Counted from the stretch's first letter, positions 3,515 to 37,838 are shown. The stretch: DNA of 64,000 bases from Candidatus Delongbacteria bacterium (GCA_963663545.1 OY760505.1:2773664-2837663), one strand, 5' to 3'. Notes: a model not told the origin generated them from the sequence alone. Made by a program: numbers and translations.

Positions 3515-3522
3515 TTCCTTAG

Positions 3523-3595
3523 CTCCTGAGGAGGGACTTGAACCCCCAACCTAGTGGTTAACAGCCACCCGCTCTACCGATTGAGCTACTCAGGA
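3523..3595 (-). tRNA. tRNA-Asn (anticodon GTT)
   Basis: Cloverleaf folded by hand on minus strand: 7-bp acceptor stem tcctgag/ctcagga, D-arm gctc/gagc, anticodon stem ggtgg/ccact with loop ctGTTaa, T-arm ggggg-ttcaagt-ccctc; CCA not encoded. Confidence 0.85.
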
Positions 3596-4411: not shown

Positions 4412-4570
4412 AACAGCCGATGCGGCTGATCGGAGCTGGTGCCTCTCTCCGCTGAGTGAGAGTAGCCGGACCTTTGTGTCACGTGATTGCCTTCCGCCCC
4501 TTGATGACCGCTCCGCATGAGTACTTCCTGACATCTGCGCCTGAGTTTCCAGTAAGTGAAAGGCCCCTGC

Positions 4571-17418: not shown

Positions 17419-18569
17419 GCATGAAGCAGAGCAGAGCCAAACTGAAGCTTCCTGTGTGCATCGTTAGCGGTTCCTATCCCCCCATGCGGGATGGCGTTGG
17501 TGATCATACGAGAATGCTGGCCCGGAGTTTTGCTCAGCTTTGCGGAAAGCGTGCCCATGTGCTCACCAGCGTTGAGGCTGCAAGCGACGATGAAGTAGCG
17601 CATGTGCAACCTCTGTGCGCTGGTTGGGGACTTTCTCAGATTCTTCGCGTGATACGTTACTTGCGCGGGCTTCGCGCAGGCACGGTAGTGATCCAGGCGC
17701 AGAGTAACGGCTATGGCATTGATACGGGTGTCCTTTTTCTTCCTTTTCTGCTGCGTCTTGCAATGCCGCGCGTGAAGATGGGAATTGTCATACACGAGTA
17801 CATCAGCTGCTCTTGGAAGGGGCGCTTCAGGGTACTCATGGCCTTGCCCTTTGCAAACCAGGCCTTCGCTGTCAGTCAGCAGTATTTGCCGTTGCTGCAT
17901 CGTGCCTTACCCTGGATGAAAGAACGCATCCACTACGTTCCCATTGCCAGCAATATGACACCGGTTCCGGTCAGCAAGGAGCGAGTGAATAGGTTGCGGA
18001 CTGAATTGGGTGTGGCGCAGGAGGACCTTTGCCTGGTTTTCTTTGGAGTGCTGCGTAGACGTAAAGGCTTGGATCAACTGCTTGAGGCCTTCGCTGGGGT
18101 CCTGCAACGACAACCCCATGCGCGACTACTGCTTGTCGGCCATTCTCGCGAGGACTGGTTCGATGCCGAGTTCGGACCGCTGCTGAAGCAGAGTGCCATG
18201 CGGGATCGCATTACGCTGACAGGACGCGTAGATGATGAGACATTGAGTGCTGTGTTATCCATGTGCATTCTTGGCGTGCTGCCTTTTGTCGACGGCCTAA
18301 GCACCCGACGCGGGAGTTTTCTAGCTCTGTTGGCGCACGGACTTGTGACCGTCACCACACGCCCACAGCATCCAATTCCCCAGTTTGAAGATGGTGTCAC
18401 ACTACGGTACGTAGATCCAGGTGATACACAAGGGTTGGTGGATGCCGTCTGCGAGCTGCTTGAGAACAGCGAGTTACGTGAAGCCATTGCGCGTAGACTG
18501 CCTGAGGCTGCCCGGCATTTCGATTGGGAGACCATTGCCAGCAGGATGCTGTCGCTGTTAGGGGACTAA
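17415..18569 (+). CDS. glycosyltransferase family 4 (GT1 superfamily)
   Basis: Start at ATG 17415 (ATGA overlap with upstream stop); C-terminal half ...VFFGVLRRRKGLDQLLEAF...LLLVGHS... typical of GT4. Confidence 0.7.
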   Translation: MSMKQSRAKLKLPVCIVSGSYPPMRDGVGDHTRMLARSFAQLCGKRAHVLTSVEAASDDEVAHVQPLCAGWGLSQILRVIRYLRGLRAGTVVIQAQSNGYGIDTGVLFLPFLLRLAMPRVKMGIVIHEYISCSWKGRFRVLMALPFANQAFAVSQQYLPLLHRALPWMKERIHYVPIASNMTPVPVSKERVNRLRTELGVAQEDLCLVFFGVLRRRKGLDQLLEAFAGVLQRQPHARLLLVGHSREDWFDAEFGPLLKQSAMRDRITLTGRVDDETLSAVLSMCILGVLPFVDGLSTRRGSFLALLAHGLVTVTTRPQHPIPQFEDGVTLRYVDPGDTQGLVDAVCELLENSELREAIARRLPEAARHFDWETIASRMLSLLGD

Positions 18570-18617
18570 GCGATATCCTGCATCCGTAGGCTGAATCTGA
18601 GACGAAGGGGGTTGCCG

Positions 18618-20192
18618 ATGAATTGGATTCGCACCTTGTTGTCCACGGCCTCAGGCAAGCAGAAGTCGTCGCCTTTCAAAATCCCTAAACCCGGGCCGCT
18701 GCCAGACACGCTTGAACTCAGAAAGCCCTCTTCGCACTGGGTGCCGGGAGCCTGTCGTCCCGGAGCCATGCGTGAAGGGAGCTTTTACGCTGCCGGTGTA
18801 TCGCGTCCGCTGTCGCAGCTCGCTGATTGGAAAGATCCCACGGCTGATCTGGCGTGGAGCCAATACTTGCACAGCTTCTATGATCTGATGAGGGCAGATT
18901 ACAACGACTATCAGGATCTCCACGCTTCACAGATTCAGCAATGGATGGAGGTATCACAAGAACTTCCGCATTCCGCCTGGTCACTCGATGTGACGGCAAG
19001 GCGTGTTACAAATTGGATTCGCTGGAGTTTTCGTGGTGGCGTCTTGCCCAAGGATGCGCTGGGGAGTCTTTGCCAGCAGGCGCAGTTTTTGTCTGGGCGT
19101 CTGCGACGTGCTGATGGGCAAGAGTCGGCACTGGCAAAAGCGCTCGTGTTTTGCGGATTGTTCCTGAATTGTGATACAAGCAGTGTCTGGGTACGTCAGG
19201 GAGTTGGCGTTTGGAACAGCCTTTTGAAGGAAGCACAGACCAGCGATCGAGTTCTCGTTGAGAAAGGTCCGGCGGGATTGGCCGCACTCTGCGAGGACCT
19301 CCTGGACCTGCTGAATCTTGTCAACGCCTACCGTGACGATTTTCAGCATGCCGCCGAATTCACCAGCACAGGGCACGAGAAACTGCAGCAGCTTTTACTG
19401 CACCTTCGCTTGTGCACACATCCGGATGGCGAGATCGCTTTCTTTCGTGGCAGCTGTCTAGGAGTTGCTCCCAGATTGGCCGTGCTACAAGATTACTGTC
19501 GCCGCCTGGGCCAGGAACCTCCTGAGAGGAGTGAGGCGAAAGTGGTTCGCATTGGTGGCTCCAATGTGATACGATTTCGCGGTGAGGACTCGTTACTGCT
19601 GTTCAACGCAGCTTCCACAGACAGTCGTGTGCCGGAATACGCCGATTTGCTCAGCCTGGAGTTTTCGCTGCTTAGCCAGCGAATCCTGGTAAATCAGGGT
19701 TGCATCGGCGTTGGAGATAACGCTGGCATACGAAGTGGGGTCATTCTGAATCAGCACGAAGAGCTGAGTACATCTGTATCACAACCTTCTCGGGTTCATA
19801 TTCGTGACCTCCAGCTGGACACAACGGGAGCGCAACTAAGCGCCCAGGCTGTTCACGATGCATTTCGAAGCTATCCCGGACACCCACTTGTATCACGACA
19901 GATGATTCTCAACGAGAAGGAATTGCGTATTCACGACCGCATTCTGGGCGGGTTCAAGAATGCCTGCGTGGTTTTTCTTCTTCATCCCGATCTTGAAGTA
20001 AGCTTCAACCCGGAGAACCTCTTCGGGCAGATACGGCTACCCAACGGCAAACGCGCTGGCTGGACTGTCAGCCGCGGAAGACAGAAAATTGTTGATTATG
20101 ACTGGCATCCTTCGGCAGGTGTATCACGCACGGGCAAAGGCCTTGTGATACAGTTTGCCAATGCGGAGGCCGAGTTGGCAATTAGTTGGTAA
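18618..20192 (+). CDS. hypothetical protein, possibly heparinase II/III-like polysaccharide-modifying enzyme
   Basis: ~525-aa ORF in a polysaccharide locus; ATG 18618 preceded by aggggg; family call by context and size only. Confidence 0.3.
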   Translation: MNWIRTLLSTASGKQKSSPFKIPKPGPLPDTLELRKPSSHWVPGACRPGAMREGSFYAAGVSRPLSQLADWKDPTADLAWSQYLHSFYDLMRADYNDYQDLHASQIQQWMEVSQELPHSAWSLDVTARRVTNWIRWSFRGGVLPKDALGSLCQQAQFLSGRLRRADGQESALAKALVFCGLFLNCDTSSVWVRQGVGVWNSLLKEAQTSDRVLVEKGPAGLAALCEDLLDLLNLVNAYRDDFQHAAEFTSTGHEKLQQLLLHLRLCTHPDGEIAFFRGSCLGVAPRLAVLQDYCRRLGQEPPERSEAKVVRIGGSNVIRFRGEDSLLLFNAASTDSRVPEYADLLSLEFSLLSQRILVNQGCIGVGDNAGIRSGVILNQHEELSTSVSQPSRVHIRDLQLDTTGAQLSAQAVHDAFRSYPGHPLVSRQMILNEKELRIHDRILGGFKNACVVFLLHPDLEVSFNPENLFGQIRLPNGKRAGWTVSRGRQKIVDYDWHPSAGVSRTGKGLVIQFANAEAELAISW

Positions 20193-20269
20193 CGAAAACC
20201 CCGGAGTGTTGCTCCGGGGTAGGGGTTATCGAACGTGGCCGCTTCGCGGTCTAATTCACCACTGCAGGC

Positions 20270-21388
20270 CTACTTGCGCAGCCTTCCAAGTGTATCACAG
20301 ACGTAGTCGATCTGCTCATCACTCAGCTCGGCAAACATCGGCAGCGATAGAATCTGCTCGCAGGCTCGTTCCACTACAGGGAAAGAACCGTGGCTGTAGC
20401 CCAAGTCCGCAGCTGCACGTTGCAGGTGAATGGGAATTGGGTAGTGAATCCCGCAACCGATACCAGCCTCGCCAAGACGATCACGCACTGTATCACGGTC
20501 CATGCCGAAATCATCTGTGATACGAATTACAAAGAGGTGATACACATGTCCGATTCCCGCTGGTGCTGGCGGGAGCGTTAGCCCGGGGATGCCTGCCAAT
20601 CGCTCGCAGTAACGGGCCGCGTGGGCACGACGAGCTTCGTTCCAGGCAGGCAAGTGGGGCAGCTTGACCGCCAGACTGGCCGCTGCCAGACCCGCCATGC
20701 GGTAGTTGTGACCCCAGACCTCGTGCACATTCTTTTCGGTCATACCGTGGTCGCGTAACACACGCATGCGGGCGTAGAGCTCTTCGTCATCCGTCAGCAC
20801 ACCACCACCCTCGCCGGCGGCGCCCAGGTTCTTTGCTGGATAGAAGCTGAAGCAGCAGGCCTTGCCGAAGCGGCCGACAAACTGCCCCTTGTGCGAAGCA
20901 AGATGCGCTTGGGCCGAGTCTTCCACCAGCTCCAACTTGTGCTTACGGGCCAGCTCGCTCAGGGCATCCATTTGTGCCGGAAAGCCGAAGAGATGCACGG
21001 GTAGAATCACTTTCGTGCGTTCGGCAATGGCGCGTTCTGCAGCGGCGGGATCCATGTTCAGACTATCGTCGAGCACGTCCACCAGCACCGGACGGGCGCC
21101 CGTGAGACGAATGCCTTCGACGGTGGCGATGAATGTATTTGCGGGAACGATGACTTCGTCGCCTTCACCGATTCCCATACCCCACAGGGCAAGGTGAAGG
21201 GCGGAGGTACCGTTGTTGCACGCAACAGCAAAACGCGCATTGTGGGCCTGGGCAAAGGCCTTCTCGAACGCGGCCACCGTCGGGCCCTGCACGTATTCGC
21301 CTCGCTCAAAGATCCCGAGAATGGCGGGATCCATTTCCTCGCGCAGACTTAGGTATTGTGCGCGCAGATCTACAAAGGGAACCTTCAT
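20270..21388 (-). CDS. DegT/DnrJ/EryC1/StrS family PLP-dependent sugar aminotransferase (WbpE-like)
   Basis: N-terminus MKVPFVDLRAQYLSLREEMDPAI...NGTSALHLAL typical of this family; start at ATG 21388 with aggacg RBS. Confidence 0.88.
   Translation of the reverse strand: MKVPFVDLRAQYLSLREEMDPAILGIFERGEYVQGPTVAAFEKAFAQAHNARFAVACNNGTSALHLALWGMGIGEGDEVIVPANTFIATVEGIRLTGARPVLVDVLDDSLNMDPAAAERAIAERTKVILPVHLFGFPAQMDALSELARKHKLELVEDSAQAHLASHKGQFVGRFGKACCFSFYPAKNLGAAGEGGGVLTDDEELYARMRVLRDHGMTEKNVHEVWGHNYRMAGLAAASLAVKLPHLPAWNEARRAHAARYCERLAGIPGLTLPPAPAGIGHVYHLFVIRITDDFGMDRDTVRDRLGEAGIGCGIHYPIPIHLQRAAADLGYSHGSFPVVERACEQILSLPMFAELSDEQIDYVCDTLGRLRK
20489..20544. repeat. cluster of three GTGATACR octamers within 56 bp (one inverted pair plus one direct copy)
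   Basis: ctGTATCACggtccatgccgaaatcatctGTGATACGaattacaaagagGTGATACAcatg, inside the DegT-like CDS. Confidence 0.85.
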
Positions 21389-21580
21389 TGGACGTCCTGT
21401 TGTTTTACCTGTCAAGAAATTGACAAGTTAATAGTTCCTGGGGATGCTGTGGGCATCCGCAGACCGGACGTTGCCGGCGTGTTGCAAGGTAGCGAATGAG
21501 GGATCATCCGCCCCGCGTGCGAGAGGAAGCCCGACGATCACTACCTTGTGCGCCGTGTAGATAGAAGCTGGAGGCACGAA

Positions 21581-22579
21581 GTGATCGTTGCTGTAATCGG
21601 ACTGGGCTATTGGGGCCCGAACATGGTGAGAAACTTCCTGGCCTGTCCCGGTGTGAACCGCGTGCTGGCTTGTGACCTGGACGCAGAGCGATGCGAACAA
21701 ACCGCGCGCCGCTTTCCCGGATTGGAGATTGTTGCGGACCTGGATGAGGCGCTTTCGCGTGCCGACGCTGCGGTTCTGGCAACACCGCTGTCAACGCATC
21801 ACGCCTTGGGCATGCGGGCACTGGATGCCGGTTGCCATTTGCTGGTCGAGAAGCCTTTTACCGAGACTTCTGCACAAGCGCAGGAACTGATCGACACGGC
21901 TCGCTGCCGCAAGTTGACGCTGATGGTGGATCACACCTTCCTCTATACGGGCGCTGTTCGCAAAATGGCTGCGCTGAACCAGTCGGGCGATCTGGGGCGT
22001 TTGCTCTATTTCGATTCCGTTCGCGTGAACCTGGGCCTTTTCCAGCACGACACCAATGTGATCTGGGATCTGGCGCCCCACGACCTTTCCATTATGGATC
22101 ACATTCTGGGCGGTGCTCCTGAGGCCGTGCAAGCTGTGGGCGCGCGCCATTACTACGAACACGAAGACATGGCCTACCTGACTGTGCGTTATCCGAATGA
22201 TCTGCTGGCGCATATTCACGTCAACTGGATTTCACCGGTCAAGGTGCGACAGATTCTGGTGGGTGGAAGCAATCGCATGCTCATGTACGATGATATGGAG
22301 CCAAGCGAGAAGATCAAGGTGTACGACAAGGGCGTGGAGATCAAAGACCGCGAACAAGTCTGGGAGACGCTGGTTTCCTACCGCACCGGCGACATGTGGG
22401 CACCGCGCTTGGAACAGGCCGAGGCTCTTAGTCTTATTGCGCGTGAGTTTATCGCTTCCATCAAAGAGGGCCGTCGACCGCTGACCGACGGCGAAAGCGG
22501 TCTGCGTGTAGTACGCGTGCTCGAAGCAGCGCAAAAGAGCCTGACACAGGGCAACGTGTTCGTTCCTCTGGCGGACTGA
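21581..22579 (+). CDS. Gfo/Idh/MocA family NAD-binding sugar oxidoreductase (WbpB-like)
   Basis: Rossmann N-terminus VIVAVIGLGYWGPNMVRNF; start at GTG 21581 after ggagg; track start 21548 is the alternative. Confidence 0.8.
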   Translation: MIVAVIGLGYWGPNMVRNFLACPGVNRVLACDLDAERCEQTARRFPGLEIVADLDEALSRADAAVLATPLSTHHALGMRALDAGCHLLVEKPFTETSAQAQELIDTARCRKLTLMVDHTFLYTGAVRKMAALNQSGDLGRLLYFDSVRVNLGLFQHDTNVIWDLAPHDLSIMDHILGGAPEAVQAVGARHYYEHEDMAYLTVRYPNDLLAHIHVNWISPVKVRQILVGGSNRMLMYDDMEPSEKIKVYDKGVEIKDREQVWETLVSYRTGDMWAPRLEQAEALSLIAREFIASIKEGRRPLTDGESGLRVVRVLEAAQKSLTQGNVFVPLAD

Positions 22580-27339: not shown

Positions 27340-28767
27340 TCACGAAGCCTCCGGTTTGGCTTTCAGCGCGAGTGAGGCAGCCAGGGCTGGAGCCTGCCAG
27401 GGCAGCCAGCGCACGGTAATCACCAACCCCACACCTTTGTAGACTGCAGAAGCAAGGATGGCCAGCCAGACAGCGGTCATTCCCAGCCCCGTCCACTCGA
27501 CAAGCATCCACGCCAGCGGAATGCGCAGCAGGTTACCCGGCAGATTGACTCGTAATGGCCACGAGCTCACTCCCGCTCCCACCAGGCTGTCGCCCAGAGT
27601 CACTTCCAGCAGTTGAAAGAGATTGGCGAAAGCGGCTAGGCGCACGTAGATCGAGCTCAATCGAATCAACTCCGGGTCGCTGGTGTAAATGCGACACAGC
27701 CATTCGGGAATTAGCAGCCAGGCGGCGGAGAAGAGCAGGGCGACGGGGAGCGCAGCCAGCAGACTGTGACCGGCGGCGTGATACACGGGCTGCAGGATGC
27801 TCCGCAGTTCCTGCTTGTCTGTGGGAACGCCCTGATTTGCAGGATGACGGGCCGCTGCGCGCCCGATGGCTTCGCCTGAGATCGCCGAGCTCGCAGCACC
27901 GAAGCCGACCAATACCATGAAGCCGATAGACTCAATGCCGCGAATGCCGATGCCCAAGACCGCGAAGGCTTCCTGACCGAATTGGGCCAGCAGGCGGTTC
28001 AGCACCATGAAAATTGAGGCGTAGAAGAGTGTCGACAGGCTGGACGGCAGACCCACACGCAAGATCTCGCGCCAACGGTTAAGCCGGGGACGCAACTGCA
28101 GTGCGCTGGGGAAATGCAGGGCGCCTTCGGCCAAACGGTGACGGAAGATGTACAAGCCAACCAGAGCGCTCAGAAAGCGTGAAGCAATTGAGGCCAGCGC
28201 GATGCCACTTAACCCGGCGGAAAACAGCAGCACCGCACTCGCGTTCAACGCCGTATTCAGCGCGACACCCAGTAGCTGCAAACGAAAGACGGTCTTTGTA
28301 TCACCAAGACCAATGAACACGCCGTCGACAATGGCGGCCATGGACATCAGCGGATAGCCCAGGTACATCAGGCGCAGGTAGAGAATGGCCAGCTTGAGGG
28401 TTTCGCCCTCGCCGCCCATCAGCCCCAGCACCCAGGGCGCAAGCACCCAGCCAGCAGCAAGAATGAGCAAGGAGCACAGCAGATTGAGTGTCAGGCCTTG
28501 CGCTGCAGCCATGGCGATGCCACGGTGATCCTCCATACCGCGCAGACGTGCTACAAGCGAGAGCACACCCTTTTGCACCATTGCGCTTAACCCGTAGTTG
28601 AAAATCAGCACCATCATGCACAAGCCGATAGCGTTGATTGCAGTCGGGCTGATGCGGCCTGCCCAGAAGAAATCGTTGATGGCGTAGAGGGTGCCCAGAA
28701 TAAAACTGCCCGCAGCGGGCAAGGCAATCTGATACACACGTTTCAATAGCGGACGGTCGACGTTCAA
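27340..28767 (-). CDS. MATE family efflux transporter
   Basis: 475-aa 12-TM-like protein; N-terminus LLKRVYQIALPAAGSFILGTLYAINDFFWAGRIS typical of MATE. Confidence 0.8.
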   Translation of the reverse strand: MNVDRPLLKRVYQIALPAAGSFILGTLYAINDFFWAGRISPTAINAIGLCMMVLIFNYGLSAMVQKGVLSLVARLRGMEDHRGIAMAAAQGLTLNLLCSLLILAAGWVLAPWVLGLMGGEGETLKLAILYLRLMYLGYPLMSMAAIVDGVFIGLGDTKTVFRLQLLGVALNTALNASAVLLFSAGLSGIALASIASRFLSALVGLYIFRHRLAEGALHFPSALQLRPRLNRWREILRVGLPSSLSTLFYASIFMVLNRLLAQFGQEAFAVLGIGIRGIESIGFMVLVGFGAASSAISGEAIGRAAARHPANQGVPTDKQELRSILQPVYHAAGHSLLAALPVALLFSAAWLLIPEWLCRIYTSDPELIRLSSIYVRLAAFANLFQLLEVTLGDSLVGAGVSSWPLRVNLPGNLLRIPLAWMLVEWTGLGMTAVWLAILASAVYKGVGLVITVRWLPWQAPALAASLALKAKPEAS

Positions 28768-29501
28768 TGGCTACCTCGCAGGAAGAGCAAACGCCAGAGG
28801 GATTCCGGCAAAGAGCGCAATAGACGCATGATGTAGTACCAGCGACGCGGCGTGTAACACACGTTCTGCCCAAGATCGAGGGCCTGCCACGCATCGCGGG
28901 CGACAAGATCGGGATTTACCGCAAAAGGCAAGGACATTCCAGCGGTCATCGGAGTACGCACTGGTCCGGGTTTGATCATCAGCCAGCGATGTCCCGCCTC
29001 CTGGAATACGACGCGCAGACGCATCACCTCTTCTTCCAACTGTTGTTTGGAAGCGCCGTAGTGCCAGTTGCTACTGCGCAGGCGGTCCCCGGCCACAGAG
29101 CCGAGCACCAGGAAGCGGGCCGGTTGTCCTGCTTCTGCAAGTCGCGATGCCAGGACTCTCAGCCAATTGACGCTGCCCAGGTGGTTGACGGCGGCCATTG
29201 TGTTACGGGCAGCAGAATCGGTTTCGGGTAGCATTTGTCCCCAGGCCAGGAGAATCGTGTCAGGGAGCAGGTGTGCTGCTGCAAGAGTACGAATCAACTC
29301 GTTGGGGCCGCTGCCATCGGTCGCCTCTGCAGGTAGCAGAACGGTTTCCACTCCCTGTTCACGTGATACACCGGCCAATTCAGCCAACTCGCCGGGACGA
29401 CGTGCTGCCAGCACTAGCGCCTCCGGGGGGCACTCCCGCAGTCTGTGCTTCACCATGGCTTGCGCGATGGCCGACCCGGCTCCCAGTACAAGAAGTTTCA
29501 T
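28764..29501 (-). CDS. short-chain dehydrogenase/reductase (DprE2-like)
   Basis: Trimmed to ATG 29501 giving MKLLVLGAGSAIAQ Rossmann N-terminus; ATGA overlap with upstream gene stop. Confidence 0.55.
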   Translation of the reverse strand: MKLLVLGAGSAIAQAMVKHRLRECPPEALVLAARRPGELAELAGVSREQGVETVLLPAEATDGSGPNELIRTLAAAHLLPDTILLAWGQMLPETDSAARNTMAAVNHLGSVNWLRVLASRLAEAGQPARFLVLGSVAGDRLRSSNWHYGASKQQLEEEVMRLRVVFQEAGHRWLMIKPGPVRTPMTAGMSLPFAVNPDLVARDAWQALDLGQNVCYTPRRWYYIMRLLRSLPESLWRLLFLRGSH

Positions 29502-30814
29502 CGACGCAGTCCCAGCCTTCGCGCCATCAGCCCCCCCATGATGCCCTGCGGATCGATGGTGGAAAGCAGCTGCAGAAACTCCTCGTAAGCCGGATACATG
29601 CGCCGGAAGACTCCGGCATCTAGCAGTGCATCCTTGGCCAGATACACGCGCCCTCCGTTTTCGGCGCACTCGAAATTGAGCTTGCGTACCACTTCAACAC
29701 TAGCCGTAGTACGTGGCAAATCGGCAGCCAACGTGACACCCGCAGCACCAAAGGCGAGCGGTCCGCCGCCGGGGTTCTCACCCATGATTTTCAGCACCGT
29801 CAGCGCACTTCCGCCGCAGGCTTCGCGCATCTGCGCCAGTGCGTGATACAAGAAATGACGAGATGAGTTACGGTTGCTGGCGTTCCAGGGAAGCAGACAC
29901 TGATACTGAAGGAAGCCCGCTTTTCCGTAGGCGCGATTCCAGTTGTCCACCGCATCCAGAGGCCAGAAGAAGGGCTGGATGTGCTGTAAACTGTGAGCCT
30001 CGGGGCGAGCTGGAGAAGTAGCCCAGACAAGGGTGTTGAAGGCGCGCAGGCTGAGCGCGTTTACCAGGCTGATGGGTGGTCTCAACGGAAGGCTGACCGT
30101 CATGCTGTCTTTCAACTCACCGGCACGATCGGCGGGATCTCCCAGGTGCAACAGCCCTCGTCCGCAGCCTGATGATCCATCAACCCAGGCAACCGACCAG
30201 GTGGCGTTACGGGTTTCCACCTTTTCCAGCATCTCCTCAAGATCCCGACAGCGGAATGTGATACGACGGACCCAGGCGCCTTGCGTTGGAACGAGCTGCA
30301 GTGTTGCACGAAGAATGATGCCCGTTAAGCCCATTCCGCCCATGGTGGCCGTGAACAGATCTCCCTGCTCCTGGTCACTGCAATGGAGGATCTCCCCGTT
30401 CGGGGTCAGGAGATCAAAGCCTGTGACACATGAGTTGAAGGAGCCGCTGTTGTGGTGATTCTTCCCATGTACATCTGCGGCAATCGCCCCGCCTACGGTT
30501 ACATGGGCTGTGCCGGGTAATACAGGCGGCCACCAGCCGACGGGAAACGTGTGCGCCATCAGCTCACGCAGGCTGACTCCGGCTTCCACTGTGATACAAC
30601 CGGTGTCTTTGTCGAAGGATAGAATGCGTCTGTTTTGGCGCATGGGAATCAGATCTGCCGCCAGCGCTGCATCGCCATAACTGCGGCCCATACCCCAGGC
30701 GAGTAAGCCCTTCTGTGATTTCGGTAGAAGGGCGTGTCCGGTGTCGAGTTCGTGCAGATTGGCCAGCAGTGTTGGATAGTACCCCCAACCCGCCATTGGC
30801 TGTGTGTGACTCAT
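29498..30814 (-). CDS. FAD-binding oxidoreductase (DprE1-like)
   Basis: ~438-aa ORF with GMGRSYGDAAL FAD-binding block; start at ATG 30814 overlapping UbiA-like stop (ATGA). Confidence 0.6.
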   Translation of the reverse strand: MSHTQPMAGWGYYPTLLANLHELDTGHALLPKSQKGLLAWGMGRSYGDAALAADLIPMRQNRRILSFDKDTGCITVEAGVSLRELMAHTFPVGWWPPVLPGTAHVTVGGAIAADVHGKNHHNSGSFNSCVTGFDLLTPNGEILHCSDQEQGDLFTATMGGMGLTGIILRATLQLVPTQGAWVRRITFRCRDLEEMLEKVETRNATWSVAWVDGSSGCGRGLLHLGDPADRAGELKDSMTVSLPLRPPISLVNALSLRAFNTLVWATSPARPEAHSLQHIQPFFWPLDAVDNWNRAYGKAGFLQYQCLLPWNASNRNSSRHFLYHALAQMREACGGSALTVLKIMGENPGGGPLAFGAAGVTLAADLPRTTASVEVVRKLNFECAENGGRVYLAKDALLDAGVFRRMYPAYEEFLQLLSTIDPQGIMGGLMARRLGLRR

Positions 30815-31665
30815 TTCAACAACCACCATGTGCTCAGTACCCAAAGACCTGTAGTGATGGCAAGGGGTAAATCAAGCAGCAGCGAGCGCGAGCTCCCTAA
30901 ATTGTGATACACGCGATGCAGATAATGCAACAGCGCGTAGGCCACAAAGGGCACGGTTAGAATCAGTGATACACCTTCCCGATGGACGTTGAGTTCGCTG
31001 CAGTACAAGCTGTACAGGATCAGTGCGGCGACAAGTGAGAGGCTGAGCACCTGGTCGAGAAATCGTAGTGAGTCTGCACTTCCACCTGCCGCTGAACCTT
31101 CCGGCTCCATGCGCCTTTTCGCCGCAGAGAGGAACAGGGCCAATGCGCCTGTGCAGAGAAGAATCCAGTCGCTGGCAGCTACGCCTACGGCTTGTGTTCC
31201 AGCCAGTACGCGTAATACAAAACCCGCCGATACCAGGCATAGATCCAGAGCGGGTACGCGCTTCAACCCCAGCGAGTAGCCCACATTAAGCAACAAGTAA
31301 AGGCCTAGCACCGGGGCGAGTTCAGGCATAAGTGTGAAGGTAGCTGCTAACAGCAGTGCCAAACCACCTAGTAGCATTGCGCCTACTTGCCTGCGTGATA
31401 CAAGCCCTGCTGCCAGCGGTCGCTGTGCTTTCGCCGGGTGCAGGCGATCCTGCGCTTCATCACACAAATCGTTGAAGAGATATACTAGCGATGAAGCGAT
31501 GCAGAAGAGCAAAAAAGCCAGTGTGCTTTTTAGCCAGGGCTGATTACCTGTGTGATACAACTGTACCGCTGTTGCCTGATTGGCAAAGCGGGCAAAAAAG
31601 GGCCCTGCGAAAACCAGCAGGTTCTTGGGCCATTGCTGTATGCGAAATTGATCGAACCAGTACAT
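30811..31665 (-). CDS. UbiA-family prenyltransferase (decaprenyl-phosphate phosphoribosyltransferase-like)
   Basis: 284-aa polytopic protein with NDLCDEAQD (NDxxDxxxD) motif. Confidence 0.7.
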   Translation of the reverse strand: MYWFDQFRIQQWPKNLLVFAGPFFARFANQATAVQLYHTGNQPWLKSTLAFLLFCIASSLVYLFNDLCDEAQDRLHPAKAQRPLAAGLVSRRQVGAMLLGGLALLLAATFTLMPELAPVLGLYLLLNVGYSLGLKRVPALDLCLVSAGFVLRVLAGTQAVGVAASDWILLCTGALALFLSAAKRRMEPEGSAAGGSADSLRFLDQVLSLSLVAALILYSLYCSELNVHREGVSLILTVPFVAYALLHYLHRVYHNLGSSRSLLLDLPLAITTGLWVLSTWWLLK

Positions 31666-33306: not shown

Positions 33307-33377
33307 TGGCCCATCGTCTAACGGCAGGACATCGGATTCTGGTTCCGAGAATTGGGGTTCGAATCCCTGTGGGCCAG
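33307..33377 (+). tRNA. tRNA-Gln (anticodon CTG)
   Basis: Hand fold: acceptor tggccca/tgggcca, D-arm gtct/ggac, anticodon stem tcgga/tccga with loop ttCTGgt, T-loop ttcgaat; CCA not encoded. Confidence 0.8.
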
Positions 33378-33386
33378 CTAGCCCAA

Positions 33387-33487: not shown

Positions 33488-34339
33488 ATGCGGCTCTTCT
33501 TCTTAATGGTTCTTGCGACTGCCCTACCCGTGTTGGCACAGATCAGTGCTGATCATAGGGACGATTTCGCTGCCGGTAGTTCCCACGACTGGGAGCGCGG
33601 CACTGTAAGCAACGGGCATCTTATCCTGACCGCCGACGGATCGGGAGAACACGGCAAGCTGGTCACTTTCGCCCAAGGAGACTGGGCGGGTGATTACACC
33701 AGTGCCGGTATTGATTCCATTCGTGTCACATTCGAGAATCCCAGCGGCCGCGATCTTGAGATGCGCATTGCGCTTGGAACCGGCGATGACCCGCGTAGCG
33801 GCACGTGGTACAGTTCGGTTGAGTCCATTTCGCTACCTGCTGGTGGATCCCCTGTAACCGGAAGTTTCGGTCTGGACGCAGCCGCCCTCATGAGGGTTGA
33901 GGGCAGCTCCAGTCTGGAGTCGGTCATGAGCAGTGTGGCAACGCTCCGCATCCTTCACAGCACAACGCCAGATGCTCGCGGACCGAACATTACTGCCAGC
34001 GTCTATTTGGATGATATTACCGCGATTTCCAATCTGGATGTATCACCGACTGGCGTCGTCGAGAGTGCGCTGCTGCTTTCTTCCTATCCCAATCCATTCA
34101 ATCCATCGACCCTGATTCGCTTCACGTTGCCCGACGCCGATGCGGTTCAAGTGCAAGTCTTCAACCTGAGCGGACAGCTGGTGAGCACGCTGCTGGAGGC
34201 TCAGCTTCCCGCCGGTATGCATCAGCTACAGTGGAATGCGCAGGACCAGCAGGCGCACGCCTTGCCGAGCGGCGTCTACTTTGCACGGGTTTCCACTTCC
34301 CGTGAATCTGCCGTGCAGCGCATGACTCTGCTGCGTTAG
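33488..34339 (+). CDS. secreted protein with T9SS-type C-terminal sorting domain
   Basis: Signal peptide MRLFFLMVLATALPVLAQ; C-terminus ...LSSYPNPFNPSTLIRFTLPDADAVQVQVFNLSGQLV...GVYFARV... matches Por-secretion CTD pattern. Confidence 0.7.
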   Translation: MRLFFLMVLATALPVLAQISADHRDDFAAGSSHDWERGTVSNGHLILTADGSGEHGKLVTFAQGDWAGDYTSAGIDSIRVTFENPSGRDLEMRIALGTGDDPRSGTWYSSVESISLPAGGSPVTGSFGLDAAALMRVEGSSSLESVMSSVATLRILHSTTPDARGPNITASVYLDDITAISNLDVSPTGVVESALLLSSYPNPFNPSTLIRFTLPDADAVQVQVFNLSGQLVSTLLEAQLPAGMHQLQWNAQDQQAHALPSGVYFARVSTSRESAVQRMTLLR

Positions 34340-34536: not shown

Positions 34537-36453
34537 ATGAAATACATCCCACTGGCGGAAGCCACGCCCGAGTACTACGAACAGATCGGGCTGAAATCAG
34601 GTCTGGAAATTCATCAGCAGCTACTCACCGACACAAAGCTCTTCTGTCGCTGTCCTGCCGGCATCTACTGCCGCGATTGGGATGCGGAGGTGCTTCGTCA
34701 CATGCGCCCGACGTTGTCGGAGATGGGCGAGTACGACGGTACGGCGCTGATGGAATTCAAGACACGCAAGGAGATCGTCTACCGCATCAAAAACGAGACG
34801 GTCTGTACCTACGAGTTCGATGACACGCCGCCCTTCACCGTTGACGAGAAGGCGGTGGACATTGCCATTGAGGCTGTGATGCAGCTGGGTGGAAGCCTGG
34901 TCAGCGAGATTCACATCACGCGCAAGCAGTACCTGGACGGCTCCATTCCCACGGGTTTTCAGCGCACGACCATCGTCGGCGTTGGCGGCCGCATTCCTTA
35001 CAAAGGTCGCTGGATCGACATCATCCAGTTGAGCCTTGAGGAAGACAGTTGCCGCGAGATCAGCGATTCCGGCCACCGTCGCGTGTACATCACCGACCGC
35101 CTGGGCATGCCGCTCATCGAGACCGTGACCGATTGCCAGATGCATACGCCCCAGGATGTTGCCGGTGTGGCGGAAGTGCTGCGCCGCCTGGTTCGTGCTA
35201 CAGGCAAAGTGCGAACGGGTTCGGGTGCGGGGCGCGAGGATACCAATGTCTCCGTACGCGGAGGCGAGCGCTGCGAAATCAAGGGTGTCGGCTCGATCAA
35301 ACTGATTCCCATTCTGGTGCACAACGAGGCGTTCCGTCAAGTGCAGTTGCTGGAGATTCGTGAAGAGCTGCTGCGTCGCGGTATCACGGAGGATAGCTTC
35401 TCCTGGCGCAGTCAGGATCTGAGCGATCTGGCGGCCGACCTCCCTACCGATGTCGAGCTGGCATTGCAGACTGGCGGAAGCATGCATGCTGTTGTGCTGG
35501 AAGGCTTCGCCGGACTGCTATGCAAGGAGCTGAGTCCCGGACGCAACTTCCTGAGCGAGATTAGTGACCGCGTCCGTGTCATTGCCTGCGTCGACAGCAT
35601 TCCCAATGTGCTGGGCAGCGACGGCGCCGGTGATACGGATCACCCGGGGTTGTGGCAGAAAGTGCGTGCGGCCATGCAGGCCGGAGACGAGGACGCTGTG
35701 ATACTCGTTTGGGGGCCTGCGGCTGATATGGCAACCGCTGTCAGCGAGATCTCCATTCGTGCTCACGAGGCGATTGTTGGCGTGCCACGTGAGACAAGAC
35801 AGCCCATGCCGGACGGTACGACGCGTTTCGAGCGAGTCCTGCCGGGAGCCGATCGCATGTATCCGGATACCGATCTGCCTCCGCAGGCAATCGAGGACGA
35901 ACGCATCGAGCGCATTCGTGCCGGTTTGCCGCTTCCCCCTTGGCAGGTGTACGAAGAGGCCATCGGTGACGGATTGCATCACGAGCTTGCTGCCCGCATC
36001 TCCATTTCGCCCTACGCCGGGCTTTATCGGCGATTGCGTGATACACAGCCTGAACTGCCTGCCAACTTGCTGGCACAGTGCCTTTGCGAGTGGACCGTCG
36101 ATGCGCGTCGTCGCGGCGCTGCGGCATGGAAACTCAGCGACGCTAGTCTGGGCGAAATGCTGGTGGAAGTGGCCACGGGCCGGCTTCTACCAGCCGGGTT
36201 GCATCTCATGCTGATTCGTGATACAAAGGCTGACAGCATTCAGGAGGCAATTGACGAGCTCGGGTTGAATCCAGCAAGCGATGCGGAGATTCTGTCTGCC
36301 ATCGATTCTGCACTGAAGCAGGTGCCCCGCAACAGCGATCCTGCGGCGCGTCATCGCTTCACCATGGGCGAAGCCATGCATCGTTTGCGTGGGCGTGTAA
36401 TGGGCAGAGTCCTTGCCGAGCGGATCAGCCAAGAATTGGAGGCACGCGCGTGA
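34537..36453 (+). CDS. gatE: glutamyl-tRNA(Gln) amidotransferase subunit E (archaeal-type GatE)
   Basis: 638 aa from ATG 34537; GatB/E-type N-terminus GLKSGLEIHQQL...KLFCRCP; length and pairing with downstream GatD-like gene favour GatE over GatB. Confidence 0.75.
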   Translation: MKYIPLAEATPEYYEQIGLKSGLEIHQQLLTDTKLFCRCPAGIYCRDWDAEVLRHMRPTLSEMGEYDGTALMEFKTRKEIVYRIKNETVCTYEFDDTPPFTVDEKAVDIAIEAVMQLGGSLVSEIHITRKQYLDGSIPTGFQRTTIVGVGGRIPYKGRWIDIIQLSLEEDSCREISDSGHRRVYITDRLGMPLIETVTDCQMHTPQDVAGVAEVLRRLVRATGKVRTGSGAGREDTNVSVRGGERCEIKGVGSIKLIPILVHNEAFRQVQLLEIREELLRRGITEDSFSWRSQDLSDLAADLPTDVELALQTGGSMHAVVLEGFAGLLCKELSPGRNFLSEISDRVRVIACVDSIPNVLGSDGAGDTDHPGLWQKVRAAMQAGDEDAVILVWGPAADMATAVSEISIRAHEAIVGVPRETRQPMPDGTTRFERVLPGADRMYPDTDLPPQAIEDERIERIRAGLPLPPWQVYEEAIGDGLHHELAARISISPYAGLYRRLRDTQPELPANLLAQCLCEWTVDARRRGAAAWKLSDASLGEMLVEVATGRLLPAGLHLMLIRDTKADSIQEAIDELGLNPASDAEILSAIDSALKQVPRNSDPAARHRFTMGEAMHRLRGRVMGRVLAERISQELEARA

Positions 36454-37838
36454 GCGATCAGGAAGTCTACAAGGGATATCGTGAGCCGACTCTTTCACTG
36501 CTGAAACAGCACGGCGTACGCGTGTGGAGTGAAGTCGATATCGAGAGTTCGCGAGGCCGCTTCTCGGGTTTGATTCTACCGCGCAGCGAGACCGCCGACG
36601 AGGTTCACATTGTTGTCAAGCTGGCCACCGGCTACAACATTGGTCTGCGCTACGACACCATCCAGTCTATTACTGAGAAGGGCTATAAGGAAGCTCACTA
36701 CAAGATTCCTGAAAAGGAGTTTCCCTACTCACCCAACAAGCCGCGCGTCAAATTGCTGGGAACCGGTGGCACAATTGCGTCCAGACTGGACTACCGCACC
36801 GGTGCTGTGATACCGGCGTTCTCACCCGGTGAACTCTACGGAAGTGTTCCCGAACTGGCAGACATTTGCAATCTGGAAACGGAGAAACTCTACGGCGTTT
36901 TCAGCGAGAACATGGGACCGGAACAGTGGATGGGTGTAGCACGCGCCATTGGCGAGGAAATCGAACGCGGCGTGGATGGCATTGTCATCGGGCATGGTAC
37001 CGATACAATGCATCACACGGCGGCGGCGCTTTCCTTTATGGTGCAGAACACACCGGTGCCCATTGTAATGGTAGGCAGCCAGCGCAGCAGCGACAGGCCG
37101 TCCTCCGATGCAGCGCTTAATCTGATGCACGCCACCCTGACCGCAGCCAGTAGCGATATCGCTGAAGTCATGGTTTGCATGTTCGGTCCTACTTCAGACC
37201 AGTATGGCTTGCTGCATCGCGGTACGCGAGTGCGTAAGATGCACAGCAGCTATCGTAGTACATTCCGCACTCTTGGTGATACACCGCTAGCTATGGTCAA
37301 TCGACAGGAAGTGACTCCCATTAAAAAGGAGTATGCACACCGTCGTCAGGACAAGAATGTGCAGATCAAGGCTGCCTTTGAAGAGCGTGTTACAATTCTC
37401 TACTACTATCCCAACATGCATCCCGATATGGTCGACAGTCTGGTGGACCGGGGCTACAAGGGTATTGTGATTGCCGGCACTGGTTTAGGCCACGTCAACA
37501 AGCCGCTTTACAAGGCGTTGGGACGCGCTTGCGAGCAGGGCGTCTCGGTGTGCATGACTGTGCAGACCCTATGGGGCTATGCGCAGATGTACGTTTACGA
37601 GACGGGACGCGAGTTGATGGAGTTGGGCATTTATCCGCTGGCGAATATGCTTCCGGAAGTGGCCTACGTCAAACTGGGCTGGGCCTTGGGGCAGAGCAGC
37701 GATCCGGTTGAAGTGCGCCGCATCATGGAGACGCCGATTGCCCATGAAATCACACCACGCGAACCCCACAACGGCTATCTGGTTTACCAGGGCGGAATTC
37801 CCGAGGTCGAGGAGTTCATTCGCAACTACCGCAAGTAG
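36450..37838 (+). CDS. gatD: glutamyl-tRNA(Gln) amidotransferase subunit D (archaeal-type GatD)
   Basis: 462 aa; N-terminal extension then asparaginase-like domain LLGTGGTIASRLDYRTGAV and IVIGHGTDTMHHTAAALS; GTGA overlap with gatE stop. Confidence 0.78.
   Translation: MSDQEVYKGYREPTLSLLKQHGVRVWSEVDIESSRGRFSGLILPRSETADEVHIVVKLATGYNIGLRYDTIQSITEKGYKEAHYKIPEKEFPYSPNKPRVKLLGTGGTIASRLDYRTGAVIPAFSPGELYGSVPELADICNLETEKLYGVFSENMGPEQWMGVARAIGEEIERGVDGIVIGHGTDTMHHTAAALSFMVQNTPVPIVMVGSQRSSDRPSSDAALNLMHATLTAASSDIAEVMVCMFGPTSDQYGLLHRGTRVRKMHSSYRSTFRTLGDTPLAMVNRQEVTPIKKEYAHRRQDKNVQIKAAFEERVTILYYYPNMHPDMVDSLVDRGYKGIVIAGTGLGHVNKPLYKALGRACEQGVSVCMTVQTLWGYAQMYVYETGRELMELGIYPLANMLPEVAYVKLGWALGQSSDPVEVRRIMETPIAHEITPREPHNGYLVYQGGIPEVEEFIRNYRK

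What the first reader, a model, noticed from the sequence alone, without database searches (positions are those of the whole stretch)
28764..31665. DprE1/DprE2/UbiA-like three-gene cluster suggesting a decaprenyl-phospho-arabinose-type lipid-linked sugar pathway
A UbiA-family prenyl/phosphoribosyl transferase (NDxxDxxxD), an FAD-binding oxidoreductase (GRSYGD) and a ~246-aa SDR are tightly coupled with ATGA stop-start overlaps, next to a MATE transporter. This gene triad mirrors the mycobacterial DPA route, which would imply arabinofuranose-type glycans in a non-actinobacterial lineage.
Basis: partly seen in the sequence, partly recalled or inferred. Interest (0 to 1): 0.45.

Follow-up and report, generated by a model that had tools for sequence, protein, structure and literature searches.

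The report
Lipid-linked arabinofuranose donor synthesis operon
Three tightly packed genes in an uncultured non-actinobacterial bacterium encode the enzymes that, in mycobacteria and Pseudomonas, build a lipid-linked D-arabinofuranose sugar donor; the reading is right, but this module is widespread in bacteria and already described, so it is an ordinary new member.

Summary
On the minus strand lie a UbiA-family gene (31665-30811, 284 aa, NDLCDEAQD), an FAD oxidase (30814-29498, 438 aa, GRSYGD), an SDR (29501-28764, 245 aa) and a 12-TM MATE gene (28767-27340), joined by ATGA, ATGA and TTGA overlaps.

Each of the three enzymes matches decaprenyl-phosphate phosphoribosyltransferase (Rv3806c), DprE1 or DprE2 best or near-best, far ahead of other UbiA, FAD-oxidase or SDR families, and keeps the catalytic residues. 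So the triad most likely makes polyprenyl-phosphate-D-arabinofuranose from PRPP.

This is not unusual. DprE1 homologues number more than 8000 in the protein database and occur in at least 598 species genomes across many phyla. DprE2 is adjacent in 48 of 55 informative loci and UbiA lies directly upstream in 30. The same minimal triad is experimentally established in Pseudomonas aeruginosa, and the concept was generalised by Kelly et al. 2024.

The MATE gene is probably a bystander. Its orthologues sit in the same MATE-kinase-DeoC synteny in relatives that lack the triad.

No 5'-phosphatase, GtrA/SMR protein or GT-C transferase is in the window, so the acceptor glycan is unknown.

Verdict: new member of a known kind, low interest. 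A side observation, a roughly 70-fold over-represented 8-mer TGTATCAC, may deserve more attention.

The parts
30811..31665 (-). Polyprenyl-phosphate 5-phosphoribosyltransferase (PPPRS; Rv3806c/UbiA-type), 284 aa, no fused phosphatase domain
   Evidence: Pfam UbiA 71 bits. NCBIfam best hits are the decaprenyl-phosphate phosphoribosyltransferase models, 164/156/128 bits, below the equivalog cut-offs of 234/207/474. The only PDB hit is Rv3806c 8j8j, 103 bits. NDLCDEAQD at residues 65-73 and KRRME at 183-187. Seven hydrophobic segments.
29498..30814 (-). DprE1-like FAD-dependent polyprenyl-phospho-ribose 2'-oxidase, 438 aa, no signal peptide
   Evidence: NCBIfam DprE1 NF053785 346 bits (cut-off 500), next family 63 bits. 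PDB DprE1 247/232 bits against 44 for the next fold relative. GRSYGD 43-48, DVHGKNHH 114-121, FLQYQ 301-305 and K394 aligned to M. smegmatis K425 / Mtb K418. Ala363 stands at the position of the benzothiazinone-target Cys.
28764..29501 (-). DprE2-like short-chain dehydrogenase/reductase (2'-keto reductase), 245 aa
   Evidence: NCBIfam PRK07102 121 bits and DprE2 NF053786 112 bits (cut-off 250). Best PDB hit is DprE2 chain 21gq_C, 68 bits against 39 for the next. GAGSAIA 7-13, GSVAG 134-138, Y148-x-x-x-K152. An SDR of this kind lies directly downstream of DprE1 in 48 of 55 informative loci.
27340..28767 (-). True MATE-family (MatE, MOP superfamily) transporter, 475 aa. Packed against the triad but probably an older resident of the locus; a role as lipid-sugar flippase is possible but unsupported
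   Evidence: TIGR00797 matE 188 bits, above the cut-off of 147. Pfam MatE 137 bits. TTGA overlap with the SDR stop. Orthologues at 47-58% identity keep the MATE-kinase-DeoC synteny without any triad. A MATE gene near the triad occurs in only 2 of 81 loci.

Best explanation
The three genes form a self-contained module that makes a polyprenyl-phosphate-linked D-arabinofuranose donor on the cytoplasmic face of the membrane.

1. [quoted passage not shown] The lipid is probably undecaprenyl-P or another resident carrier, and its length is not shown.
2. A phosphatase encoded elsewhere removes the 5'-phosphate.
3. The DprE1-like flavoenzyme oxidises the ribose 2'-OH to a ketone.
4. The DprE2-like SDR reduces the ketone with NAD(P)H to the arabino configuration.
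5. The donor is then flipped and used by a membrane GT-C-type arabinofuranosyltransferase encoded outside this 64-kb window. This transferase decorates a surface glycan or protein.

What is shown: gene order, family assignment and residue conservation. What is inferred: all chemistry, the lipid, the flipping step and the acceptor. The adjacent MATE gene is most likely co-transcribed by accident of insertion and is not a dedicated component.
For: - Specific best matches of all three proteins to Rv3806c, DprE1 and DprE2, in NCBIfam and among solved structures, with large margins over other families.
- Conserved catalytic and cofactor motifs. The KRxxE motif corresponds to residues R366/E369 that Kelly et al. 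targeted for alanine replacement in C. youngae ORF15 (PMC11127046).
- Translational coupling through ATGA overlaps.
- The same UbiA-DprE1-DprE2 order recurs across phyla. DprE2 is adjacent in 48 of 55 loci and UbiA lies directly upstream on the same strand in 30 of 55.
- In other lineages the triad sits with the expected accessory genes: GtrA in 18 of 81 loci, stand-alone HAD phosphatase in 13, divergent PAP2 in 7, and HAD-UbiA fusions in 18 of 44.
- In P. aeruginosa Pa5196, the UbiA homologue 6246 plus DprE1 and DprE2 are the minimal set for D-Araf pilin glycosylation, the phosphatase is not essential, and the transferase TfpW is encoded in an unlinked locus (bioRxiv 10.1101/2020.04.19.049825).
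- DprE1/E2 homologues accompany Araf-containing Gram-negative glycans (PMC11127046).
Against: - All three proteins score below NCBIfam's equivalog cut-offs (164 < 234, 346 < 500, 112 < 250), so orthology in the strict sense is not certified.
- No phosphatase, GtrA/SMR or GT-C gene was found in the 64-kb window, so the pathway is incomplete as seen.
- The polysaccharide locus 9-22.5 kb away has its own Wzx/Wzy machinery and no demonstrable link to the triad.
- No biochemical or glycan data exist for this organism.
Confidence: 0.8

Rival explanations
1. Four-gene system: the 12-TM MATE transporter is the dedicated flippase that moves polyprenyl-P-arabinofuranose (or its ribose precursor) to the outer face. 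It would replace the GtrA/SMR-type proteins found next to the triad elsewhere.
For: - There is a 4-nt TTGA overlap (or at most a 27-nt gap) between the DprE2 stop and the MATE start, and the same junction occurs in L001.
- The window has no GtrA or SMR candidate.
- MATE belongs to the MOP superfamily along with the Wzx and MurJ lipid-sugar flippases, and several orthologues also carry precomputed MurJ Pfam hits.
- The flippase for this donor is unresolved in P. aeruginosa.
- Kelly et al. assign a transporter as the second component of such systems.
Against: - Orthologues at 47-58% identity lie in the same MATE-kinase-DeoC or MATE-DeoC-GFO-DegT synteny in relatives that have no triad upstream (L082/L083, L086). 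In L086 the MATE start overlaps an unrelated Fer4/TPR gene by 4 nt.
- A third orthologue, L084, also lacks the triad.
- Among 81 DprE1 loci a MATE gene is near the triad only in L001 and, 5 kb away, in L022.
- The transporter called 'MATE' by Kelly et al. is a 4-helix EmrE/ArnE-like protein, not a 12-TM MatE.
Confidence: 0.13
2. The module makes a lipid-linked pentofuranose other than D-Araf. Examples are the 2'-keto intermediate used for another modification, or a different epimer. Alternatively it supplies polyprenyl-P-ribose as the actual donor.
For: - Scores lie below the equivalog cut-offs, and identity to the mycobacterial and P. aeruginosa DprE1 proteins is only about 33-40%.
- Kelly et al. 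show that related systems deliver Ribf or Xylf depending on the epimerase present.
Against: - Xylf systems use a different single SDR epimerase (an ORF13 homologue), whereas DprE1/E2 pairs were found with Araf-containing glycans.
- The DprE1 catalytic Lys, the FAD motifs and the DprE2 Ser-Tyr-Lys triad are intact.
- No aminotransferase or other tailoring gene is adjacent.
Confidence: 0.08
3. A small secondary-metabolite or quinone cluster: an aromatic prenyltransferase, a tailoring FAD oxidase and a reductase, with a MATE efflux pump exporting the product.
For: The generic Pfam labels (UbiA, FAD_binding_4, adh_short, MatE) would fit such a cluster.
Against: - Aromatic, haem and quinone prenyltransferase models score 32 bits or less against 164 for DPPR synthase.
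- The only solved-structure match of the UbiA protein is Rv3806c.
- The oxidase scores 346 bits for DprE1 against 63 or less for other oxidases.
- The MATE gene predates the triad at this locus.
Confidence: 0.02

Closest known systems
Pseudomonas aeruginosa Pa5196/PA7 D-arabinofuranose biosynthesis cluster (PsPA7_6245-6251; 6246 = Rv3806c homologue, 6248 = DprE1, 6249 = DprE2)
   Same: Both are non-actinobacterial and have the same three core enzymes. That triad is the experimentally defined minimal set for D-Araf pilin glycosylation. The transferase (TfpW) is encoded in an unlinked locus, as must be the case here. The UbiA enzyme is short and unfused. The window's DprE1 is 40% identical to the P. 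aeruginosa-group protein P0075.
   Different: P. aeruginosa has a PAP2-type phosphatase (6245) and a GtrA-like protein (6247) inside the cluster. The window has neither, and has a 12-TM MATE gene downstream instead. The acceptor here is unknown.
Mycobacterial decaprenyl-phospho-arabinose (DPA) pathway: Rv3806c (UbiA), Rv3807c, DprE1 (Rv3790), DprE2 (Rv3791), Rv3789
   Same: All three enzymes match it best among solved structures. The window proteins keep the NDxxDxxxD motif, the DprE1 Lys418 equivalent (K394), His/Lys of DxHGKNHH, the QYQ motif, and the DprE2 Ser-Tyr-Lys triad.
   Different: In mycobacteria dprE1-dprE2 and ubiA lie in separate parts of the arabinogalactan locus together with the emb/aft GT-C genes (established knowledge). 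Here the three genes are a single overlapping operon with no GT-C nearby. The benzothiazinone-target Cys387 is Ala363 here, as in most non-actinobacterial homologues (consensus). The lipid is probably not decaprenyl.
Three-component extracytoplasmic pentofuranose glycosylation systems (Kelly et al., PNAS 2024, PMC11127046; Citrobacter youngae O1/O2 prototype, GT136)
   Same: Both start with a PPPRS that uses PRPP to make a polyprenyl-P-pentofuranose donor. Auxiliary epimerases set the sugar identity, and the paper notes DprE1/E2 homologues wherever the glycan contains Araf.
   Different: The prototype PPPRS carries a fused HAD phosphoribose-phosphatase domain, and its locus contains a 4-helix EmrE/ArnE-like transporter and a GT136 GT-C. 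The window's PPPRS is unfused, and no phosphatase, small transporter or GT-C is present within 64 kb.

Membership tests
Polyprenyl/decaprenyl-phosphate 5-phosphoribosyltransferase (Rv3806c-type UbiA) | UbiA-superfamily polytopic membrane fold | tested here: met
   Pfam UbiA 71 bits, above the 34.2 cut-off. Seven hydrophobic segments.
Polyprenyl/decaprenyl-phosphate 5-phosphoribosyltransferase (Rv3806c-type UbiA) | Asp-rich NDxxDxxxD motif and the downstream KRxxE motif (Arg and Glu targeted for alanine replacement in C. youngae ORF15) | tested here: met
   NDLCDEAQD at 65-73 and KRRME at 183-187, aligned to NDVRDVEAD and KRYAE of Rv3806c. Residues as listed in PMC11127046.
Polyprenyl/decaprenyl-phosphate 5-phosphoribosyltransferase (Rv3806c-type UbiA) | Closer to DPPR synthases than to any other UbiA subfamily | tested here: met
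   164/156/128 bits to the DPPRS models and 134 to the HAD-UbiA model, against 32 or less for all other prenyltransferases. The only PDB hit is 8j8j/8j8k.
Polyprenyl/decaprenyl-phosphate 5-phosphoribosyltransferase (Rv3806c-type UbiA) | NCBIfam equivalog score cut-off | tested here: not met
   164 bits against a cut-off of 234 for NF008977. The models are built mainly on actinobacterial sequences.
Polyprenyl/decaprenyl-phosphate 5-phosphoribosyltransferase (Rv3806c-type UbiA) | Transfers ribose-5-P from PRPP to a polyprenyl phosphate | not testable with these tools
   Needs an enzyme assay.
DprE1 (polyprenyl-phospho-ribose 2'-oxidase) | FAD_binding_4 domain with the vanillyl-alcohol-oxidase-type C-terminal cap | tested here: met
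   PF01565 70 bits and a weak ALO match. End-to-end alignment to DprE1 structures, query residues 31-436.
DprE1 (polyprenyl-phospho-ribose 2'-oxidase) | Catalytic Lys (Mtb K418) and active-site His132/Lys134, Gln334/Gln336 | tested here: met
   K394, H116/K118 and Q303/Q305. All are invariant in a 31-sequence alignment. The roles of these residues are taken from established knowledge of Mtb DprE1.
DprE1 (polyprenyl-phospho-ribose 2'-oxidase) | Cys387 (covalent target of benzothiazinones) | tested here: not met
   Ala363 aligns with M. smegmatis Cys394. From established knowledge, this residue is not needed for catalysis. It predicts benzothiazinone insensitivity.
DprE1 (polyprenyl-phospho-ribose 2'-oxidase) | NCBIfam equivalog score cut-off | tested here: not met
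   346 bits against a cut-off of 500 for NF053785. The next family scores 63 bits.
DprE2 (2'-keto-pentofuranose reductase, SDR) | Classical SDR with a Ser-Tyr-Lys triad and an N-terminal dinucleotide-binding Gly motif | tested here: met
   GAGSAIA 7-13, S135, Y148 and K152. Pfam adh_short.
DprE2 (2'-keto-pentofuranose reductase, SDR) | Encoded immediately downstream of, and coupled to, dprE1 | tested here: met
   ATGA overlap. An adjacent SDR of this kind is present in 48 of 55 loci.
DprE2 (2'-keto-pentofuranose reductase, SDR) | NCBIfam equivalog score cut-off | tested here: not met
   112 bits against a cut-off of 250. The generic model PRK07102 scores slightly higher at 121 bits. DprE2 is the best solved-structure match.
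Three-component pentofuranose glycosylation system (Kelly et al. 2024) | Phosphoribose phosphatase (HAD PRP domain or a separate phosphatase) with the synthase | tested here: not met
   The UbiA protein is 284 aa and unfused. HMMs of the HAD and DUF212/PAP2 neighbours from other loci find nothing in the window.
Three-component pentofuranose glycosylation system (Kelly et al. 2024) | Dedicated transporter for the lipid-linked donor | tested here: inconclusive
   A 12-TM MatE gene is adjacent, but it is conserved without the triad in relatives. No GtrA-type gene was found in the window.
Three-component pentofuranose glycosylation system (Kelly et al. 2024) | GT-C glycosyltransferase (GT136 or other) in the locus | tested here: not met
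   The polytopic proteins of the window are WecA-like, Wzy_C-like, a divergent Wzx, CdsA, SpoIIE, UbiA and MATE. The rest of the genome could not be searched.
MATE (MatE) transporters | Two MatE repeats, about 12 TM helices, score above the family cut-off | tested here: met
   TIGR00797 188 bits, above the cut-off of 147. Pfam MatE 137 bits in 3 stretches.

The most novel reading that the evidence does not exclude
In this lineage a bona fide 12-TM MATE (MOP-superfamily) transporter, translationally coupled to dprE2, has been recruited as the flippase for polyprenyl-phosphate-arabinofuranose. That step has no agreed catalyst in mycobacteria or Pseudomonas. If true, this would be a tractable candidate for the missing translocase and an example of a drug-efflux-type MATE acting on a lipid-linked monosaccharide.
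Probability: 0.12. Interest if true: 0.5.

Novelty: new member of a known kind. Interest (0 to 1): 0.2.

Why it matters
The finding predicts that an uncultured, probably FCB-superphylum bacterium decorates some surface glycan or protein with D-arabinofuranose. This sugar was long thought typical of mycobacteria.

That adds one more lineage to a distribution already known to be broad, so it changes little. Its practical value is as an annotation: the three genes can be named with fair confidence.

The only part that could matter more is the MATE gene, because the flippase for this donor is still unresolved. The synteny evidence here argues that the linkage is accidental.

Tried and rejected
1. 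**Source genome.** I looked up the exact DprE1 protein to find it. It is not on record in the gene-position index, although an identical protein exists on a 3.72-Mb NCBI/ENA contig. The organism's name was never obtained.

2. **Missing pathway parts in the window.** HMMs built from the GtrA, HAD, DUF212/PAP2 and unannotated polytopic neighbours of the triad in 80 other loci found nothing. Direct phmmer of unannotated neighbours from L088-L090 also found nothing.

3. **The 477-aa, 10-TM ORF at 14816-16249 as a possible GT-C.** Rejected. A profile of its family matches a teichoic-acid subunit flippase and the WzxE Lipid III flippase structures. Seven of 20 relatives hit Polysacc_synt, so it is a divergent Wzx.

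4. **The unannotated roughly 550-aa polytopic proteins next to the triad in Bacteroidota (A3) and others (A4).** I tried to show that they are GT-Cs by profile search of the PDB. There was no significant match.

5. **Signs of recent insertion.**
   - There are no flanking direct or inverted repeats beyond chance.
   - There is no integrase.
   - GC3 of the triad genes (0.56-0.64) is at or a little below that of the neighbours (0.63-0.71).
   - tRNA-Gln at 33307-33378 faces away from the triad.

6. **Promoter/terminator scan.** Counts are at chance level. A terminator-like hairpin at 28722-28706 lies inside the MATE 5' coding region and is not interpretable.

7. **Rfam.** It found only two tRNAs.

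8. **Secondary-metabolite reading.** Rejected on family scores.

Full report
**What is there.**

Between 31665 and 27340 the minus strand carries four ORFs with no intergenic space.

- A 284-aa polytopic protein, 31665..30811.
- A 438-aa protein, 30814..29498, starting at the ATG of an ATGA stop-start overlap.
- A 245-aa protein, 29501..28764, again with an ATGA overlap.
- A 475-aa protein, 28767..27340. It has a TTG start in a TTGA overlap, and a GTG 27 nt further on is the alternative.

Pfam assigns them to UbiA, FAD_binding_4 (with a weak ALO tail), adh_short and MatE, all above gathering scores.

**Which UbiA, which oxidase, which SDR.**

They do not.

- *UbiA protein.* Against NCBIfam it scores 164, 156 and 128 bits to the three decaprenyl-phosphate phosphoribosyltransferase models, and 134 to the HAD-UbiA fusion model. 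Every ubiquinone, menaquinone, haem or tocopherol prenyltransferase model scores 32 bits or less.
- *Oxidase.* It scores 346 bits to DprE1 and 63 bits to the next family.
- *SDR.* It scores 121 bits to the generic PRK07102 model and 112 bits to DprE2.

All three are below the curated equivalog cut-offs (234, 500, 250), so strict equivalence is not certified.

Among all solved structures:

- The oxidase matches DprE1 at 247 and 232 bits. The next protein, a cytokinin oxidase, scores 44.
- The UbiA protein matches only Rv3806c, at 103 bits.
- The SDR matches DprE2 best, at 68 bits against 39.

Residue-level alignment gives the following.

- The DprE1 catalytic lysine is kept. K394 aligns with M. 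smegmatis K425, which is Mtb K418.
- The DVHGKNHH and FLQYQ motifs are kept, and all are invariant in a 31-sequence alignment.
- The benzothiazinone-target cysteine is Ala363.
- The SDR has GAGSAIA, Ser135 and Tyr148-x-x-x-Lys152.
- The UbiA protein has KRRME at 183-187, aligned with KRYAE of Rv3806c. Kelly et al. targeted this Arg and Glu for alanine replacement in the Citrobacter enzyme.

**How common is it.**

- The DprE1-like protein has at least 8000 significant relatives at about 40% identity. They come from Bacteroidota, Gemmatimonadota, Gamma-, Alpha- and Betaproteobacteria, Kiritimatiellota and others, and JGI routinely labels many of them 'decaprenylphospho-beta-D-ribofuranose 2-oxidase'.
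The 80 best come from about twenty phyla or classes.
- I called ORFs in those loci and searched them with the window's four proteins. A DprE2-like SDR was found in 72 of 81 loci and a UbiA protein in 62 of 81.
- Among the 55 loci with at least 2.5 kb on both sides, the SDR lies directly downstream in 48. UbiA lies directly upstream on the same strand in 30.
- The window's gene order is therefore the commonest form of a widespread module.
- Clustering the other neighbours showed the expected accessory genes: GtrA in 18 loci, a stand-alone HAD phosphatase in 13, a divergent PAP2 in 7. In addition, 18 of 44 UbiA genes are about 480-aa HAD fusions.

**What is already known.**

- In P. aeruginosa Pa5196/PA7, homologues of Rv3806c (6246), DprE1 (6248) and DprE2 (6249) are the minimal set needed to glycosylate pilin with alpha-1,5-D-Araf.
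  - The phosphatase homologue is not essential.
  - The GT-C enzyme TfpW is encoded in an unlinked locus.
  - No flippase has been identified (bioRxiv 10.1101/2020.04.19.049825).
- Kelly et al. (PNAS 2024, PMC11127046) generalised this to 'three-component systems'. These comprise a polyprenyl phosphoribose synthase, a transporter and a GT-C. The systems add pentofuranoses to Gram-negative glycans. The authors state that DprE1/E2 homologues accompany the systems wherever the glycan contains Araf.
- The inference 'arabinofuranose-type glycans in a non-actinobacterial lineage' is therefore sound but not new.

**The MATE gene.**

It is a genuine MatE protein: TIGR00797 188 bits against a cut-off of 147. 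It is not the 4-helix EmrE/ArnE-like protein that Kelly et al. call MATE.

Its subfamily is small, with about 25 proteins at 47-58% identity, a few at 32-37%, then a drop to 27% or less. I looked at the genomic context of three orthologues.

- In L082/L083 the gene is followed by the same hybrid histidine kinase and DeoC aldolase as in the window. It is preceded by a toxin-antitoxin pair and rhodanese/MauE genes.
- In L086 it is followed by DeoC and, further on, the same Hexapep-GFO-DegT genes. Its start overlaps an unrelated Fer4/TPR gene by 4 nt.
- In L084 neither flank resembles the window.
- None of the three has the triad.

The conserved downstream synteny with a variable upstream side indicates one of two histories. 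Either the triad was inserted in front of a resident MATE gene in the lineage of the window and L001, or it was lost from there in the others. It also shows that a 4-nt overlap at this MATE start is not specific to DprE2.

Across the other 80 DprE1 loci, a MATE gene is near the triad only once, 5 kb away. I therefore treat the MATE gene as a probable bystander and give the flippase reading about 0.12-0.13.

**What is missing.**

- HMMs of the GtrA, HAD, PAP2 and unannotated polytopic neighbours from other loci find nothing in the 64-kb window.
- The window's polytopic proteins are a WecA-like initiating transferase (9036-10643), a Wzy_C-like protein (12101-13663), a 10-TM protein at 14852-16249, CdsA, a SpoIIE phosphatase, UbiA and MATE.
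- The 10-TM protein was my only GT-C candidate. A profile of its small family matches a teichoic-acid subunit flippase and WzxE Lipid III flippase structures, and its relatives hit Polysacc_synt. It is therefore a divergent Wzx.
- So the transferase, the phosphatase and the acceptor are encoded elsewhere or are unrecognisable. This has precedent in P. aeruginosa.
- A Wzx/Wzy-type polysaccharide locus lies at about 9-22.5 kb. It could supply the acceptor, but nothing links it to the triad.

**The organism.**

- Three proteins carry type IX secretion sorting domains. SurA, CdsA and amidase genes mark it as a diderm bacterium, and PFOR suggests an anaerobic or facultative lifestyle.
- Only one close relative is on record (L001, DprE1 66% and GatE 84% identical). 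Everything else is at or below about 57% even for GatE.
- It is thus a deep, poorly sampled lineage, probably within or near the FCB superphylum. This placement is an inference, and the name was not obtained.

**Verdict.**

The cluster is a new member of a known, widespread module for making a polyprenyl-phosphate-D-arabinofuranose donor. The chemistry, the lipid, the flipping step and the acceptor are inferred, not shown. Interest is low, at 0.2.

**Side observations.**

- *Over-represented word.* While reading the operon I noticed a recurring word.
  - TGTATCAC occurs 74 times in the window on both strands, against 1.0 expected.
  - The 7-mer GTATCAC occurs 109 times and is the most frequent 7-mer of all.
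  - GTATCAC lies in all three sense frames and in the two antisense frames that do not create a stop. It is not enriched between genes.
  - The flanks of the 8-mer show no extended consensus.
  - GTATCAC occurs at 1.7 per kb here and 1.46 per kb in L001. It occurs at 0.34-0.5 per kb in L082/L086 and 0.08 per kb in 83 unrelated loci.
  - This is the signature of a DNA-level signal such as a DNA uptake sequence. It deserves its own look.
- *GatD/GatE.* The window also encodes archaeal-type GatD and GatE above equivalog cut-offs, close to a tRNA-Gln gene. Such GatE genes turn out to be common in uncultured bacterial phyla.

Noticed in passing
whole window (e.g. 385, 6450, 20120, 27778, 29363, 30904, 30966, 40479, 59590); also L001: The 8-mer TGTATCAC occurs 74 times on both strands against 1.0 expected, and GTGTATCAC 23 times against 0.27. 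The 7-mer GTATCAC (109 copies) is the most frequent 7-mer in the window. GTATCAC lies in all sense frames and in both antisense frames that avoid a stop, and it is not enriched in intergenic DNA. The flanks of the 8-mer show no extended consensus. Density of GTATCAC is 1.7/kb here, 1.46/kb in the close relative L001, 0.34-0.5/kb in L082/L086 and 0.08/kb in unrelated loci. It resembles a DNA uptake sequence or another genome-wide DNA-level signal.
   Followed up: partly
window 34540-36453 (+) and 36450-37838 (+); tRNA-Gln(CTG) at 33307-33378 (+): Archaeal-type Glu-tRNA(Gln) amidotransferase GatE and GatD score above the NCBIfam equivalog cut-offs (485 against 456; 508 against 310). They lie about 1 kb downstream of a tRNA-Gln gene, with a T9SS-tail protein gene (33488-34339) in between, in what is otherwise a bacterium. 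The homologue search shows GatE is common in uncultured bacterial phyla (Elusimicrobiota, Krumholzibacteria, Latescibacteria, Aminicenantes), so this is less odd than it first looks.
   Followed up: partly
window 14852-16249 (+): A 465-aa, 10-11-TM protein with no Pfam or NCBIfam hit. It has only 16 relatives at E < 1e-10 among 1.8 billion representatives. A family profile matches a teichoic-acid subunit flippase and WzxE Lipid III flippase structures, so it is a very divergent Wzx-type flippase of the neighbouring polysaccharide locus.
   Followed up: yes
window 9036-22579: A Wzx/Wzy-type surface polysaccharide locus. It holds an unusually long (535 aa) WecA/MraY-like initiating transferase, a weak Wzi-like protein, a Wzy_C-like protein, two nucleotidyltransferase-like unknowns, a GT1, a heparinase II/III-like protein, a DegT aminotransferase and a GFO oxidoreductase. 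It could supply the acceptor for arabinosylation, but no link was shown.
   Followed up: partly
L055:7487-9142, L073:7202-8887, L078:7161-8870, L079:7210-8949, L035:1754-3415 and others (alignment A3); L011:12065-13693 (A4): In Bacteroidota genomes a conserved protein of about 550 aa lies divergently next to the UbiA-DprE1-DprE2 triad. It has no Pfam family or solved relative, 5-9 predicted TM segments and a soluble C-terminal third. This is a GT-C-like architecture, making it a candidate arabinofuranosyltransferase family.
   Followed up: partly
window 28706-28722 (-): A terminator-like hairpin (TTGCCCGCTGCGGGCAG followed by TTTTATTCTG) lies 42-58 nt after the DprE2 stop, inside the first 20 codons of the MATE ORF. 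The scan as a whole is at chance level, so it may mean nothing. It could also attenuate read-through from the triad into the MATE gene.
   Followed up: no
window 33488-34339, 52074-52925, 59796-63035: Three proteins with type IX secretion C-terminal sorting domains. One also carries a CBM96/disaggregatase-like domain, and one is a 1079-aa protein with no other recognised domain. They mark the organism as FCB-like.
   Followed up: no
window 3522-3595 (-) and 4556-5854 (+): A tRNA-Asn gene lies about 1 kb from a second, divergent asparaginase/GatD-like ORF (432 aa). This echoes the tRNA-Gln/GatDE pairing further along.
   Followed up: no
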